From assembly GCF_048403405.1 (NCBI RefSeq), contig NZ_CP183129.1: 64,000 nt of DNA, one strand, 5' to 3'. The position numbers and the translations under genes are program-made. Below, in pieces: positions 36,137 to 39,496 of the stretch (positions within the stretch are counted from its first letter, which is position 1; each line of letters starts with the position of its first letter). The DNA comes from Escherichia coli (lineage in GTDB: Bacteria > Pseudomonadota > Gammaproteobacteria > Enterobacterales > Enterobacteriaceae). Under the pieces are notes generated by a model that was not told the origin of the DNA, did not search any database, and saw only the letters and a list, made by a program, of their open reading frames with translations.

Positions 36137-36210
36137 TTTATCCGGTGCGCCGTAAAACCCCGTCCTTCAGGGCGGGGATATAAGGCGCGGTTTTCCACCT
36201 GACCAGGTGT

Positions 36211-36630
36211 TTGCTGTTGTTCAATGTATTGGCGGATGACGGATATTGGCGCACCTCCGCAGCTACTGGCAAAATAGCCAGGACTCCACAAAACGCCTTT
36301 GTAGTAATACCTGACGGCAATATCTGGTCGATCTCGTCGCAGTCACCTACCCGATACGCCTTTGAGGCTGTTTACCAGACTGGATATCGCCAGTTTGGGA
36401 GGATAGTTAATTAACAAATGGACGTGATCTGGTTCGCCATCCATTTCAACCAGTTCAGCTTCAAAATCAGCACATACCTTTGAAAAGTAAGTGCGTAGTT
36501 TTTCTGTCGCGTCATGGTCAAAAATCTGGCGTCGGTATCTGGTGACAAAGACCAGGTGAACATGCATCAGGAAAACACAATGCCTTCCACGCCGGATATC
36601 GGTTTCTTTTTTCACAGACCAAAGTATCAT
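36211..36630 (-). pseudogene. tnpA: tnpA (IS200/IS605 Y1 HuH transposase) interrupted by an in-frame TGA at 36343-36345
   Basis: N-terminal ORF 36343..36630 carries HuH (PDHVHLLI); the same frame continues after the stop through RLRRDRPDIAVRYYYKGVLWSPGYFASSCGGAPISVIRQYIEQQ (ORF 36088..36291). Confidence 0.7.
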
Positions 36631-36637
36631 TTGGCCT

Positions 36638-37846
36638 GTGAAACGACTACAGGCATTTAAATTCCAGTTAAGACCCGGTGGTCAACAGGAGCGTGAAATG
36701 AGGCGCTTCGCAGGCGCATGTCGTTTCGTTTTCAATCGTGCTCTGGCGCTTCAGAATGAGAATCATGAGGCCGGTAATAAATACATCCCTTACGGGAAAA
36801 TGGCTTCCTGGCTGGTTGAGTGGAAAAACGCCACTGAAACGCAATGGCTTAAAGATTCGCCCTCACAGCCATTGCAACAGTCACTGAAAGACCTTGAGCG
36901 GGCTTACAAAAACTTCTTCCGGAAGCGGGCTGCTTTTCCCCGATTCAAAAAGCGGGGACAGAATGATGCATTCCGCTACCCGCAGGGCGTTAAGCTCGAT
37001 CAGGAAAACAGCCGTATTTTTCTGCCGAAACTTGGCTGGATGCGCTACCGGAATAGCCGTCAGGTCACGGGTGTTGTGAAAAATGTCACTGTCTGCCAGT
37101 CCTGCGGTAAGTGGTACATCAGTATTCAGACAGAAAGTGAAGTATCAACTCCGGTTCACCCTTCAGCATCAATGGTCGGGCTGGATGCTGGCGTGGCTAA
37201 ACTCGCCACGCTGTCAGATGGCACAGTCTTTGAGCCTGTAAACAGTTTTCAGAAAAACCAGAAGAAGCTGGCGAGACTTCAGCGACAGTTAAGCCGCAAG
37301 GTCAAATTCAGCAACAACTGGCAGAAGCAGAAACGCAAAATACAGCGACTGCATTCCTGTATCGCAAATATCCGCAGGGACTACCTTCATAAAGTCACAA
37401 CGACCGTCAGCAAAAACCACGCAATGATAGTCATTGAGGATTTGAAGGTCAGTAACATGTCAAAGTCAGCAGCGGGTACGGTCAGCCAGCCGCGGCGCAA
37501 TGTCCGGGCAAAATCAGGTTTAAACCGTTCGATACTGGATCAGGGCAGGTATGAAATGCGCCGCCAGCTTGAGTACAAGCAGCTCTGGCGTGGCGGTCAG
37601 GTGCTTGCTGTTCCGCCAGCGTACACAAGCCAGCGTTGCGCGTGCTGTGGTCATACAGCGAAAGAAAATCGCCTGTCACAAAGTCAATTCAGATGCCAGG
37701 TATGTGGATATACAGCGAACGCCGATGTAAACGGCGCTCGTAACATTTTAGCGGCGGGGCACGCCGTTCTTGCCTGTGGAGAGATGGTGCAGTCAGGCCG
37801 CCCGTTGAAGCAGGAACCCACCGAAATGATTCAGGCGACAGCCTGA
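36638..37846 (+). CDS. tnpB: TnpB (IS605 OrfB-type RuvC-like nuclease), 402 aa, GTG start
   Basis: N-terminal KFQLRP...FNRAL; RuvC-I GLDAGV, RuvC-II VIEDLK, CxxC...CxxC zinc finger (CACCGH...CQVCGY), Ruv[13 protein letters not shown]. Confidence 0.85.
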
Positions 37847-37901
37847 ACGTAGCAGGGATCCTCGTCATTCAGGGCGTGGAGGATGTCAAGCTGATTCATC
37901 T
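37700..37901 (+). ncRNA. Predicted TnpB-associated right-end guide RNA (omega RNA) region; extent not determined
   Basis: Inferred from the known organisation of IS200/IS605 elements (RNA overlaps the tnpB 3' end and right end, guide read from flank); no sequence-level proof here. Confidence 0.3.
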
Positions 37902-38170
37902 ATGTCGAGACGAGCAAGGAAATTACGAATTCCTTCGCGTGACAAAAATTGCGCAACTTTTTCCTGCTCACTGTGAGTCATGTTGTCTATTGCGCTGATG
38001 ATTTGCCGATAAGCAGGAGTGCGAATCCCCGGTGCGTATTCGGCAAGGGGTTCTTCGGCTTCCAGAAGCATCGGCGTGTTATGGAAGGCTGGCGTGTTCT
38101 GAATAAACTCGCAAACTTGCGTATCGACCAGAATAAGTCTGGCACGACCGCCTTTCACGCCAGGAAATTT
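37886..38170 (-). pseudogene. yfeD: yfeD 3' segment (codons 37-130) of an HTH-type DNA-binding protein split by the IS110-family insertion
   Basis: ORF 37886..38158 plus in-frame upstream codons KFPG; paralogous to yfeC. Confidence 0.8.
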
Positions 38171-38236
38171 AATGAGATGGTCACTCCCTCCTTCCCGGTA
38201 CTATGCTGAGGACAGGCTTTCATTCGGAGAACTATC

Positions 38237-39241
38237 ATGGAAAACATTGCGCTCATTGGTATCGATCTGGGTAAAAACTCTTTCCATATTCATTGCCAGG
38301 ATCGTCGCGGGAAGGCTGTTTACCGTAAAAAATTTACCCGGCCAAAGTTGATCGAATTTTTGGCGACATGCCCCGCTACAACCATCGCAATGGAAGCCTG
38401 TGGCGGTTCTCACTTTATGGCACGCAAGTTGGAAGAGTTGGGGCATTCCCCAAAGCTGATATCACCACAATTTGTCCGCCCGTTCGTTAAAAGCAATAAA
38501 AACGACTTTGTCGACGCCGAAGCTATTTGTGAAGCTGCATCGCGTCCGTCTATGCGTTTTGTGCAGCCCAGAACGGAATCTCAGCAGGCAATGCGGGCTC
38601 TGCATCGTGTCCGTGAATCCCTGGTTCAGGATAAGGTAAAAACAACCAATCAAATGCATGCTTTTCTGCTGGAATTTGGCATTAGCGTTCCCCGAGGAGC
38701 TGCCGTTATTAGCCGACTGAGTACCATTCTTGAGGATAATAGTTTGCCTCTTTACCTCAGCCAGTTATTGCTGAAATTACAACAGCATTATCACTATCTT
38801 GTTGAGCAGATTAAAGATTTGGAATCCCAGTTGAAACGAAAGTTGGACGAAGATGAGGTTGGACAGCGCTTGCTGAGCATTCCCTGCGTCGGAACACTGA
38901 CAGCGAGTACTATTTCAACTGAGATTGGCGACGGGAAGCAGTACGCCAGCAGCCGTGACTTTGCGGCGGCAACAGGGCTTGTACCTCGGCAGTACAGCAC
39001 GGGAGGTAGGACGACATTGCTGGGAATTAGTAAGCGAGGTAATAAAAAGATCCGAACTTTGTTGGTTCAATGTGCCAGGGTATTCATACAAAAACTGGAA
39101 CACCAGTCTGGCAAATTGGCCGATTGGGTCAGGGATTTACTGTGCCGGAAAAGCAACTTTGTCGTCACTTGTGCTCTGGCAAACAAGCTGGCCAGAATAG
39201 CCTGGGCCCTAACGGCACGACAGCAAACTTATGTAGCATAA
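38237..39241 (+). CDS. IS110-family DEDD transposase/recombinase, 334 aa
   Basis: N-terminal RuvC-like motifs (IGIDLGK, MEACG, DFVDAEA) and C-terminal domain with conserved Ser (VPRQYSTGG). Confidence 0.85.
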   Translation: MENIALIGIDLGKNSFHIHCQDRRGKAVYRKKFTRPKLIEFLATCPATTIAMEACGGSHFMARKLEELGHSPKLISPQFVRPFVKSNKNDFVDAEAICEAASRPSMRFVQPRTESQQAMRALHRVRESLVQDKVKTTNQMHAFLLEFGISVPRGAAVISRLSTILEDNSLPLYLSQLLLKLQQHYHYLVEQIKDLESQLKRKLDEDEVGQRLLSIPCVGTLTASTISTEIGDGKQYASSRDFAAATGLVPRQYSTGGRTTLLGISKRGNKKIRTLLVQCARVFIQKLEHQSGKLADWVRDLLCRKSNFVVTCALANKLARIAWALTARQQTYVA

Positions 39242-39481
39242 CGGCAGAAATACACCGGTTTAAAGAATTACTGATCTGGTTTTGCGAATACTGATATTGA
39301 TGATACTAACGGCCCACCGGCCTGTTGAGGAACCTGTAAAACGGAAAGGCTCATTGAAGCCGTATATTTTCTGGAGGTTCATCAGGCGCGGAACTCATCA
39401 AGGCGCGGGAATAAAATCCCATTCAGACGCCGGATAGATTCAAGCAAGCCAACTTGTCGTCAAAATCGGTGTTGCAAAAAC
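39242..39481 (+). ncRNA. Candidate bridge/seek guide RNA in the 3' non-coding region of the IS110-family element
   Basis: Contains aaaacggaaa (39338-39347), identical to the yfeD insertion-site flank, followed 2 nt later by ctcatt, the reverse complement of the element left terminus. Confidence 0.45.
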
Positions 39482-39496
39482 GGGAGTGACCATAGA

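What the first reader, a model, noticed from the sequence alone, without database searches (positions are those of the whole stretch)
36141..39496. Two unrelated guide-RNA-associated insertion sequences within 300 bp around yfeD
An IS200/IS605 element ends at the yfeD stop and an IS110-family element sits inside yfeD 285 bp away; K-12 has neither, from memory. Both element families are known to use element-encoded RNAs. Inference: the gltX-yfeD-yfeC interval may be an insertion hotspot in this lineage.
Basis: inference. Interest (0 to 1): 0.45.

Follow-up and report, generated by a model that had tools for sequence, protein, structure and literature searches.

The report
Two site-specific insertion sequences at yfeD
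Two known mobile elements sit next to and inside the E. coli gene yfeD, each at its own exact nucleotide: one is an old insertion, and the other (IS4321) lands there repeatedly because yfeD happens to look like its usual target.

Summary
Against K-12, the window has two insertions. The first is a 1,748-bp IS609-type IS200/IS605 element at 36142-37889, with a tnpA pseudogene and an intact TnpB. It lies between the gltX terminator and yfeD and supplies the yfeD stop codon. The second is a 1,326-bp IS4321 at 38171-39496, 99.7% identical to the R751 copy, which splits yfeD after codon 36.

The "hotspot" reading is only partly right.

- **Occupancy.** Of 5,426 complete E. coli genomes, 4,719 have the interval empty. 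533 carry IS609 at exactly this junction, 171 carry IS4321 or IS5075 at exactly this yfeD nucleotide, and 2 carry both. Other occupants are nearly absent.
- **IS609.** This is an old polymorphic insertion 3' of a TTAT.
- **IS4321/IS5075.** This insertion is recurrent: three IS variants, two yfeD alleles and about six independent events in 11 loci examined.
- **Why yfeD.** It contains GAAAACGGAAAAAT, which is identical to the Tn21-family inverted repeat these elements normally target. It also matches two guide-like segments in the conserved 3' non-coding region, the predicted seekRNA.

This is the E. coli counterpart of Klebsiella ureC::IS5075. It is ordinary in kind, and I found no report of it. 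One oddity remains: the yfeD insertion adds 1,326 bp, while canonical sites gain 1,327.

The parts
34672..36087 (+). gltX (glutamate-tRNA ligase), left boundary gene
   Evidence: 471-aa ORF, annotated gltX in homologous loci.
36107..36141 (.). gltX/yfeD shared terminator hairpin (CGGCAGG...CCTGCCG + T-run), ending in the TTAT (36138-36141) used as the IS609 target
   Evidence: Sequence. K-12 has the same hairpin directly abutting yfeD. Six of six IS609 copies lie 3' of TTAT.
36142..37889 (+). IS609-type IS200/IS605 element, 1,748 bp, full length
   Evidence: Absent from K-12 at this locus. 100% coverage matches to 1,748-bp copies in 4,858 genomes. Ends are identical to copies at five other loci.
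36142..36202 (+). IS609 left end with subterminal hairpin (CCCCGTCC-TTCA-GGGCGGGG, about 36158-36177)
   Evidence: ssDNA fold -14.7 kcal/mol, z = -2.4.
36203..36630 (-). tnpA pseudogene (Y1/HUH transposase); premature stop at codon 96 (36343-36345) removes the catalytic tyrosine region
   Evidence: Translation. NF033573 146.9 bits. Annotated as a pseudogene with an internal stop in homologous loci.
36638..37846 (+). tnpB/insQ, 402-aa RNA-guided endonuclease, apparently intact
   Evidence: NF040570 380.8 bits against a cutoff of 100. Pfam HTH_OrfB_IS605, OrfB_IS605 and Cas12f1-like_TNB. GLDAG, IEDL, NADVNGA and two CxxC motifs present.
37700..37905 (+). Inferred omega/right-end RNA: tnpB 3' end plus right end (hairpin about 37858-37885), with a guide read from the flank 37890-37905, antisense to the yfeD 3' end
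   Evidence: Inferred from the family rule. RNA fold z = -2.05 and right-end ssDNA hairpin z = -2.3. Only a weak sub-threshold Rfam hit, RAGATH-18 at 37773-37816, E = 0.24.
37886..38170 (-). yfeD 3' fragment (codons 37-130); the stop codon TGA is built from IS609 right-end bases
38171..39496 (+). IS4321 (IS1111 group of the IS110 family), 1,326 bp
   Evidence: Exact excess over the uninterrupted yfeD of strain 4621. 99.7% identical to the R751 copy. 100% identical to many plasmid copies.
38177..38188 (+). Left subterminal inverted repeat ATGGTCACTCCC
   Evidence: Reverse complement of 39482-39493.
38237..39241 (+). IS4321 DEDD transposase, 334 aa (= WP_000427623.1)
   Evidence: NF033542 341 bits. 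Pfam DEDD_Tnp_IS110 and Transposase_20. Annotation of identical copies.
39274..39496 (+). Invariant 3' non-coding region, identical between IS4321 and IS5075 types
   Evidence: 0 differences in the last 223 nt against 85 in the first 1,103 nt; P about 2e-8.
39329..39380 (+). Predicted seekRNA target-binding module: basal stem 39329-39335/39375-39380, guide segment 1 AAAACGGAAA 39338-39347, apical hairpin 39348-39361, guide segment 2 AUAUUUUC 39364-39371
   Evidence: Fold. Segment 1 is complementary to top-strand offsets -1..+9 of every target, with 14-16 of 1,000 shuffles reaching 10 nt. Segment 2 equals the top-strand left half-site. The order of the two segments is as published for the IS1111 family (PMC11187229).
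39472..39477 (+). TTGCAA, the -35 box of the promoter completed only in the circular form (TTGCAA-N17-GATAAT across the AGA-T-AATGAG junction)
   Evidence: Sequence. Circle junction and promoter boxes as described in PMC5001619. Not tested here.
39482..39493 (+). Right subterminal inverted repeat GGGAGTGACCAT
39497..39604 (-). yfeD 5' fragment (codons 1-36, helix-turn-helix part); reads on into IS4321 as a 54-aa ORF
39606..39965 (-). yfeC, intact paralogue that lacks the target motif

Best explanation
Two mechanistically unrelated, nucleotide-specific insertions lie 281 bp apart by coincidence.

(1) An IS609-type IS200/IS605 element inserted long ago 3' of a TTAT at the end of the gltX/yfeD terminator, inside the last codon of yfeD. 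It rebuilt the stop codon, so YfeD was unchanged. Its Y1 transposase gene is dead, with a stop at codon 96. Its TnpB is intact, so any remaining activity would be RNA-guided cutting of TTAT-flanked empty sites (inferred).

[quoted passage not shown] The yfeD codons for W-K-T-E-K-F spell GAAAACGGAAAAAT, the same 14 nt that surround its canonical insertion point. Two short segments of the RNA encoded in the element's invariant 3' non-coding region (the predicted seekRNA) can pair with the two strands of this site as well as they pair with the Tn21 repeat. The same event has therefore happened repeatedly in unrelated E. coli that acquired IS4321 or IS5075. It inactivates yfeD.

Shown here: boundaries, identities, target sequences, population counts and multiple independent events. 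Inferred: the RNA pairing, TnpB/omega-RNA activity and the plasmid-to-chromosome direction.
For: - **Boundaries and empty sites:**
- **IS609 identity.** It is full length relative to 4,858 genomes. TTAT lies 5' of all six loci and the ends are conserved. The ends form hairpins.
- **IS609 age.** The junction occurs in 533 genomes, including O157:H7, O55:H7, O145 and swine ETEC. Copies at this site differ by 33-42 nt from one another, as much as copies at other loci do.
- **IS4321 identity.** It is 99.7% identical to an R751 copy and 93% to the IS5075 type.
- **IS4321 target.** Seven loci with 100%-identical copies share ...AAAACGG(A/T)A|AAA(T/A)... in one orientation. The Tn21-type repeat and yfeD share GAAAACGGAAAAAT.
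- **Recurrence.**
  - 171 genomes carry the identical IS|yfeD junction, out of 782 genomes with a near-full copy of the element.
  - Three transposase alleles were found at the site.
  - The 11 loci examined fall into six combinations of IS variant, yfeD allele and flank haplotype.
  - Three strains carry an identical copy on a plasmid and at the chromosomal position of the yfeD site. For EcPF16 the yfeD junction is shown directly. For TUM13066 and EC2001 it is inferred from the coordinates.
- **Guide RNA.** The last 223 nt are invariant between IS types that are 7.7% diverged elsewhere. An internal-loop architecture holds a 10-nt complement to the target top strand and an 8-nt segment matching the top strand of the left half-site, so able to pair with the bottom strand. 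Order and overlap are as published for IS1111 seekRNAs.
- **Precedent.** K. pneumoniae ureC::IS5075 occurs in 14.1% of genomes for the same reason.
Against: - No RNA data exist for either element at this locus.
- The non-coding region's fold is no more stable than shuffles (z = -0.81).
- Guide segment 2 alone is short, and matches of its length are common by chance.
- No significant complementarity to the element's own ends was found.
- No Rfam family matched either predicted RNA.
- The yfeD site differs from canonical targets by one extra T, and the product lacks the usual one-T gain. The simple canonical model does not predict this.
- Independent events were judged from 11 loci, not from a full phylogeny.
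- Selection for yfeD loss cannot be excluded as a contributor.
Confidence: 0.85

Rival explanations
1. Regional hotspot: the tRNA-flanked, dispensable gltX-yfeD-yfeC interval is intrinsically prone to insertion, so unrelated elements accumulate there.
For: About 13% of genomes have something inserted in the interval. Sporadic extras exist nearby: IS903B in yfeC, IS200C near the tRNA-Ala genes, and IS186 or IS421 beside pdeA.
Against: Occupancy comes from just two nucleotide positions, each explained by its element's own sequence rule. 5,421 of the 5,425 genomes holding the interval are accounted for by empty, IS609, IS4321/IS5075 or both. Only one other insertion inside the interval turned up among 5,426 genomes.
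Confidence: 0.07
2. A single ancestral yfeD::IS4321 insertion spread by clonal expansion and homologous recombination, rather than by repeated transposition.
For: Some groups are clearly clonal, for example the RIVM_C0xxxx, 0H and CX series. Flanks are conserved enough for recombination to move the insertion.
Against: The same nucleotide carries IS4321, IS5075 (6.4% different) and a third decayed variant. It does so in both yfeD allele classes, which differ by about 14% in the last 190 bp, and with or without IS609. Right flanks differ by up to 1.5-3%.
Confidence: 0.05
3. Adaptive loss of yfeD: the insertion is common because inactivating yfeD is beneficial in multidrug-resistant lineages, and IS4321 is simply the available mutagen.
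For: The insertion destroys YfeD after residue 36. It reaches 22% of IS-carrying genomes.
Against: All other 5,254 genomes keep the site uninterrupted, and no frameshift at the T-run was seen. No other class of disruption recurs. The same argument was used against selection at Klebsiella ureC. Fitness was not tested here.
Confidence: 0.1

Closest known systems
IS4321 of plasmid R751 and IS5075 (IS1111 group of the IS110 family; Partridge & Hall 2003, as cited in PMC11187229 and PMC5001619)
   Same: 99.7% nucleotide identity to an R751 copy. It has the 12-bp subterminal inverted repeats, a 334-aa DEDD transposase and a long 3' non-coding region. Insertion point and orientation relative to AAAACGGAA|AAAT are fixed.
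   Different: Here the target is a chromosomal gene, not a Tn21-family inverted repeat. The site has one more T than the canonical target, and the insertion adds 1,326 bp rather than 1,327.
ureC::IS5075 in Klebsiella pneumoniae (PMC8269217)
   Same: A chromosomal gene whose sequence resembles the Tn21 inverted repeat is hit repeatedly at one nucleotide by IS5075/IS4321-type elements arriving on plasmids. The result is homoplasic gene loss.
   Different: The species and gene differ: E. coli yfeD, a small helix-turn-helix regulator of unknown role. Frequency is lower, at 3.2% of complete genomes against 14.1%. No phenotype is known. I found no report of it in the searchable library.
seekRNA / bridge RNA of IS1111 and IS110 elements (PMC11187229; PMC11208160)
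   Same: The RNA would be encoded in the downstream non-coding region. A segment pairing with the top strand lies 5' of one pairing with the bottom strand. The two overlap at the insertion point and sit on the two sides of an internal loop.
   Different: It is not shown experimentally for IS4321. No convincing donor-binding complementarity was found, and no Rfam model matched.
IS609 of E. coli K-12 (ydcL-ydcO locus, insQ) and the IS608/ISDra2 paradigm of IS200/IS605 with TnpB
   Same: Same 1,748-bp element at 98.2% identity, with the same ends, the same TTAT target and the same tnpA stop codon. The TnpB has the full RuvC and zinc-finger motifs.
   Different: It sits at a different locus, present in only 9.8% of genomes. 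tnpA and tnpB are divergent, as in IS605. The omega RNA and TAM were not tested for this element.

Membership tests
IS200/IS605 (IS609 type) | Y1 (HUH) single-strand transposase TnpA | tested here: met
   NF033573 146.9 bits against a cutoff of 55. HVHLL motif present. The gene is a pseudogene with a stop at codon 96, so the element is non-autonomous.
IS200/IS605 (IS609 type) | TnpB RNA-guided endonuclease with RuvC D-E-D residues and a zinc finger | tested here: met
   NF040570 380.8 bits against a cutoff of 100. Three Pfam domains matched. Motifs GLDAG, IEDL, NADVNGA and CxxC...CxxC present.
IS200/IS605 (IS609 type) | No terminal inverted repeats; subterminal hairpins at both ends | tested here: met
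   Hairpins at both ends in ssDNA folds, z = -2.4 and -2.3.
IS200/IS605 (IS609 type) | Insertion 3' of a fixed tetranucleotide, with no target duplication | tested here: met
   TTAT immediately 5' of the left end at six of six loci, with no duplication.
IS200/IS605 (IS609 type) | Omega (right-end) RNA with a guide read from the flank | tested here: inconclusive
   Only a sub-threshold Rfam hit, RAGATH-18, 25.4 bits against 44.9. Fold z = -2.05. No expression data.
IS110 family, IS1111 group (IS4321) | DEDD transposase with PF01548 and PF02371 domains | tested here: met
   NF033542 341 bits against a cutoff of 140. Both Pfam domains matched.
IS110 family, IS1111 group (IS4321) | Near-identity to the reference IS4321 | tested here: met
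   99.7% over 1,326 nt to R751 13405-14729, and 93.4% to the IS5075 type.
IS110 family, IS1111 group (IS4321) | Subterminal inverted repeats and the long non-coding region downstream of tnp | tested here: met
   12-bp repeats at 38177-38188 and 39482-39493. The left non-coding end is 66 nt and the right is 255 nt.
IS110 family, IS1111 group (IS4321) | Target is a fixed position and orientation in the 38-bp inverted repeat of Tn21-family transposons | tested here: not met
   At this locus the target is yfeD, which shares only 14 nt with the repeat. Identical copies elsewhere do sit in such repeats. The element is IS4321; the site is a look-alike.
IS110 family, IS1111 group (IS4321) | seekRNA/bridge RNA with segments pairing with both strands of the target | tested here: inconclusive
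   A 10-nt complement to the top strand is significant at about 1.5% of shuffles. There is also an 8-nt segment matching the top strand of the left half-site (able to pair with the bottom strand), in an internal loop of an invariant region. No RNA data and no Rfam hit.
IS110 family, IS1111 group (IS4321) | Circular intermediate whose junction forms a promoter | not testable with these tools
   The sequence allows TTGCAA-N17-GATAAT across AGA-T-AATGAG. Circles are reported in PMC5001619.

The most novel reading that the evidence does not exclude
yfeD may be a natural spacing variant of the IS4321 target. Its two half-sites (A-ATTT and TTCCGTTTT) abut, whereas in canonical targets they overlap by one T. 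Yet every product has the two canonical junctions and gains 1,326 bp rather than 1,327. That would mean each junction is positioned independently by its own seekRNA segment. This fits two separate single-junction reactions better than one exchange around a shared core, and gives a ready-made in vivo test between current models of IS110/IS1111 integration.
Probability: 0.25. Interest if true: 0.55.

Novelty: new member of a known kind. Interest (0 to 1): 0.3.

Why it matters
Both elements are well-known types, so there is no new mechanism here. The useful result is a correction of scale: what looks like a clustered hotspot is two independent single-nucleotide targets.

One of them makes yfeD the main chromosomal landing site of IS4321/IS5075 in E. 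coli. It accounts for about 42% of chromosomal copies, 3.2% of complete genomes and 22% of carriers. That makes it a simple marker of past exposure to Tn21-type resistance plasmids, and a natural off-target example for RNA-guided IS1111 recombinases now being developed as genome-editing tools. The one-T discrepancy at this site is a small, cheap handle on how the two junctions are set.

Tried and rejected
- **Rfam scan of 33500-41000.** Run at E <= 1, it returned only tRNAs and noise. There was no omega-RNA or bridge-RNA family, and only a weak RAGATH-18 hit inside tnpB.
- **Donor-binding loop.** I looked for complementarity between the non-coding region and the element's own ends or circle junction. 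Only 6-nt matches appeared, and more than half of shuffles reach that length. I make no claim about a donor loop.
- **Fold stability of the IS4321 non-coding region.** It is not better than shuffles (z = -0.81). The structural argument rests on architecture and sequence invariance only.
- **Divergent yfeD 3' end.** I suspected that the last 190 bp of yfeD, about 14% different from K-12, had been brought in with IS609. This is rejected: the same allele occurs in genomes without IS609 (L011-L014, L016 and L017).
- **Four-T slippage allele of yfeD.** I tested whether one exists as the true target. None was found among 5,254 uninterrupted genomes.
- **Literature.** Partridge & Hall 2003 could not be read. 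Facts about it come from papers that cite it.
- **Assembly artefact.** Rejected. The same junctions occur in hundreds of independent assemblies.
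Full report
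**What is there**

The window is E. coli chromosome with the gene order valU-valX-valY-lysV, gltX, yfeD, yfeC, alaX-alaW, pdeA, nupC. The K-12 region aligns to window 34545-36141, 37890-38170 and 39497-40017. Two segments are therefore absent from K-12: 36142-37889 (1,748 bp) and 38171-39496 (1,326 bp). Strain 4621 is 100% identical to the window across the region but lacks the second segment, which gives its empty site: GGAAATTT|TTCCGTTTTCC.

**Element A: IS609**

It carries a tnpA on the - strand and a 402-aa tnpB on the + strand.

- The tnpA matches the IS200/IS605 Y1 transposase model at 146.9 bits but has a stop at codon 96, upstream of the catalytic tyrosine region.
- The tnpB matches the RNA-guided TnpB model at 380.8 bits. 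It has the three Pfam TnpB domains and keeps the RuvC and zinc-finger motifs.
- The element is full length. 1,748-bp copies occur in 4,858 of 5,426 complete genomes, with a median of two places per genome, at ydcL-ydcO (K-12, BL21), yeaR-yeaQ, a TetR-family gene, a DUF3251 gene, yedK and here.
- All six copies examined lie immediately 3' of TTAT. They share the ends CCGGTGCGCC... and ...GGAGGATGTCAA, and both ends form subterminal hairpins.
- Five of the six carry the same tnpA stop. Only the O157:H7 copy in the TetR-family gene has an intact tnpA.

At this locus the TTAT is the end of the gltX/yfeD terminator T-tract. The insertion falls inside the last yfeD codon. The right end restores Ala-stop (GCT-TGA), so YfeD stays at 130 aa.

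By the family rule, the right-end (omega) RNA would carry a guide read from 37890 onward, and TnpB would cut TTAT-flanked empty sites. I could not test this. Rfam gave only a sub-threshold RAGATH-18 hit.

**Element B: IS4321**

- The 334-aa protein is a DEDD IS110-family transposase: 341 bits, with PF01548 and PF02371.
- The DNA is 99.7% identical to one IS4321 copy of R751 and 93% identical to the variant annotated IS5075.
- It has 12-bp subterminal inverted repeats, a 66-nt left end and a 255-nt non-coding right end, as expected for the IS1111 group.
- Identical copies are widespread on plasmids: more than 5,000 plasmid records, mostly Klebsiella. In E. coli there are 1,908 plasmid places against 405 chromosomal places.

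**Why yfeD**

I extracted the flanks of seven 100%-identical copies and of the two R751 copies. Read on the strand opposite to the transposase gene, they are:

| Site | Sequence at the insertion point |
|---|---|
| Tn21-family inverted repeats | GGGGTCGTCTCAGAAAACGGAA\|AAATAAAGCACGCTAAG |
| yfeD | GGCTGGAAAACGGAA\|AAATTTCCTGGCGTG |
| napA | AAAAACGGTA\|AAATAT |
| fliK | TAAAACGGAA\|AAAAGT |
| Site upstream of an EAL-domain gene | GCAAACGGAA\|AAATATCC |

Orientation is always the same. yfeD shares 14 consecutive nucleotides with the canonical repeat. They encode W-K-T-E-K-F. The paralogue yfeC lacks them.

**The predicted guide RNA**

- The last 223 nt of the element are identical between IS4321 and IS5075 types, which differ at 85 of the first 1,103 positions. 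The probability of that by chance is about 2e-8.
- This invariant region folds into a stem (39329-39335 with 39375-39380) that closes an internal loop around a small hairpin.
- The 5' side of the loop holds AAAACGGAAA. It is complementary to the target top strand from -1 to +9 at yfeD and Tn21 repeats. A 10-nt match is reached by 14-16 of 1,000 dinucleotide shuffles.
- The 3' side holds AUAUUUUC. It equals the top strand across the left half-site: 8 of 8 at the EAL-upstream site, and 7 of 8 at Tn21 repeats and napA. The uninterrupted 5-T yfeD matches less well, at 6 of 7 for AUAUUUU and 6 of 8 for the full segment (comparisons by eye from the sequences).
- A top-strand-pairing segment lying 5' of a bottom-strand-pairing one, with the two overlapping at the insertion point, is what was shown experimentally for the IS1111-family elements ISEc11, ISPa11 and ISKpn4.
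- The assignment for IS4321 is an inference. The fold is no more stable than shuffles, and I found no significant pairing to the element's own ends.

**Population test of the hotspot idea**

The collection is 5,426 complete E. coli genomes.

| State of the interval | Genomes |
|---|---|
| K-12-type interval intact | 4,719 |
| gltX\|IS609 junction present | 533 |
| IS\|yfeD junction present | 171 |
| Both insertions | 2 |

- The yfeD site is uninterrupted in 5,254 genomes, and 5,254 + 171 = 5,425.
- 4,719 + 533 + 171 - 2 = 5,421, so almost nothing else ever occupies the interval. I saw one IS903B in yfeC and an IS200C outside the interval, near the tRNA-Ala genes.
- The yfeD site holds about 42% of all chromosomal IS4321/IS5075 places. 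It is occupied in 22% of the 782 genomes that have a near-full copy.

**Independent events**

Eleven occupied loci, counting the window, all carry the IS at the identical nucleotide. They fall into six combinations:

1. IS4321 in an IS609-positive background (the window).
2. IS4321 with two differences, in a second IS609-positive background whose flank and IS609 copy differ by 1.5-2% (AP045770).
3. A decayed, deleted variant in a third IS609-positive background (CP178675).
4. An IS4321 allele, WP_021546935.1, with no IS609.
5. IS5075 with no IS609.
6. IS4321 identical to the window's, but in the K-12-type yfeD allele.

One strain, EcPF16, has the identical element both on a plasmid and in yfeD. 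TUM13066 and EC2001 also carry it on a plasmid and at the matching chromosomal coordinates.

The yfeD site is therefore a genuine recurrent target across lineages. By contrast, IS609 copies at the gltX|yfeD junction differ by 33-42 nt between lineages, as much as copies at different loci do. That fits an old insertion kept as a presence/absence polymorphism.

**An unexplained detail**

- The uninterrupted Tn21-type repeat has four T at the insertion point (100% matches). Occupied repeats have three T on the left and two on the right. That is a gain of 1,327 bp, consistent with the published circle junction AGA-T-AATGAG.
- napA behaves the same way: 300 nt of joined flanks align to 299 nt of empty sites.
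- Uninterrupted yfeD always has five T, and no four-T allele was found in 5,254 genomes. Yet all occupied copies examined also have three plus two, a gain of only 1,326 bp.
- Both junctions are canonical, but the two half-sites abut in yfeD instead of overlapping by one T.
- This could mean each junction is set by its own half-site. That would be compatible with the sequential, single-strand reactions proposed for an IS110 element. Alternatively, only rare slippage mutants are used, or a circle lacking the T is the donor. I cannot decide between these.

**Comparison with what is known**

Both elements are members of described families, and both are close to named reference elements. The behaviour at yfeD is the E. 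coli counterpart of ureC::IS5075 in K. pneumoniae. There, similarity of the gene's last codons to the Tn21 repeat causes repeated insertion in 14.1% of genomes. No paper in the searchable library mentions yfeD together with IS4321, IS5075, IS1111 or IS110. The site therefore appears unreported there, although the library is incomplete.

**Verdict**

The hotspot interpretation is partly supported. It is not a regional or lineage-specific hotspot. It is two unrelated nucleotide-specific sites: one old, and one recurrent through target mimicry. Their closeness is coincidental. This is a new instance of a known kind of event, of modest interest.

Noticed in passing
window about 41905 (pdeA, 40585-42774): pdeA is split into two overlapping ORFs (40524-41918 and 41893-42774). 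The cause is one extra G in a G-run (GGGGGG against GGGGG in strains AR_0372 and RIVM_C019217). It is either a frameshift pseudogene or a homopolymer sequencing error.
   Followed up: partly
window 37890-38080 (yfeD 3' end): The last 190 bp or so of yfeD exists as two allele classes about 14% apart, while flanking DNA is 97-99% identical to K-12. The window-type allele also occurs in genomes without IS609, so it is not linked to that element.
   Followed up: partly
window 36343-36345; L019, L020, L023 at locus position about 502: The same premature stop at tnpA codon 96 is present in IS609 copies at four different chromosomal loci. A fifth, L022, is also frameshifted. Only the O157:H7 copy in a TetR-family gene (L021) is intact. 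The defective form itself has therefore spread or been copied between loci.
   Followed up: partly
window 38168-38170 / 39497-39498 (T-run at the IS4321 junctions): The yfeD insertion adds 1,326 bp (five T before, three plus two after). Tn21 repeats and napA gain 1,327 bp (four to five T, three to four T). The half-sites abut in yfeD but overlap by one T in canonical targets.
   Followed up: partly
L002 (NZ_CP178675.1) 4171-5377: The IS110-family copy in yfeD of strain VTB97074v has a 100-bp 5' deletion within a net 119-bp shortfall, plus clustered blocks of differences (66 or more mismatches). It is either a decayed old copy or a low-quality assembly.
   Followed up: no
window 37773-37816: A weak, sub-threshold Rfam match to RAGATH-18 (25.4 bits, E = 0.24) lies inside the tnpB 3' end, where the omega RNA scaffold would be.
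   Followed up: no
H205, NZ_CP070008.1 33562-34010 (198-kb plasmid of FDAARGOS_1288): A plasmid carries a copy of the yfeC-yfeD 5' region at 98.2% identity, annotated as two YfeC-like regulators. It may be a chromosomal fragment captured on a plasmid.
   Followed up: no
L025 (EC556) 4313-4771; L026 (BL12) 1186-2154; L004 (K-12) 274-1618; L015 7512+: Other sporadic elements lie near but outside the two sites. IS200C lies where one tRNA-Ala gene is missing, IS903B sits in yfeC, and IS186 or IS421 sits between pdeA and nupC.
   Followed up: partly
L008 (ABWA45 chromosome) 1-132: An IS5708-family IS110 transposase gene lies immediately upstream of an IS4321 copy, so two IS110-family elements sit in tandem.
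   Followed up: no
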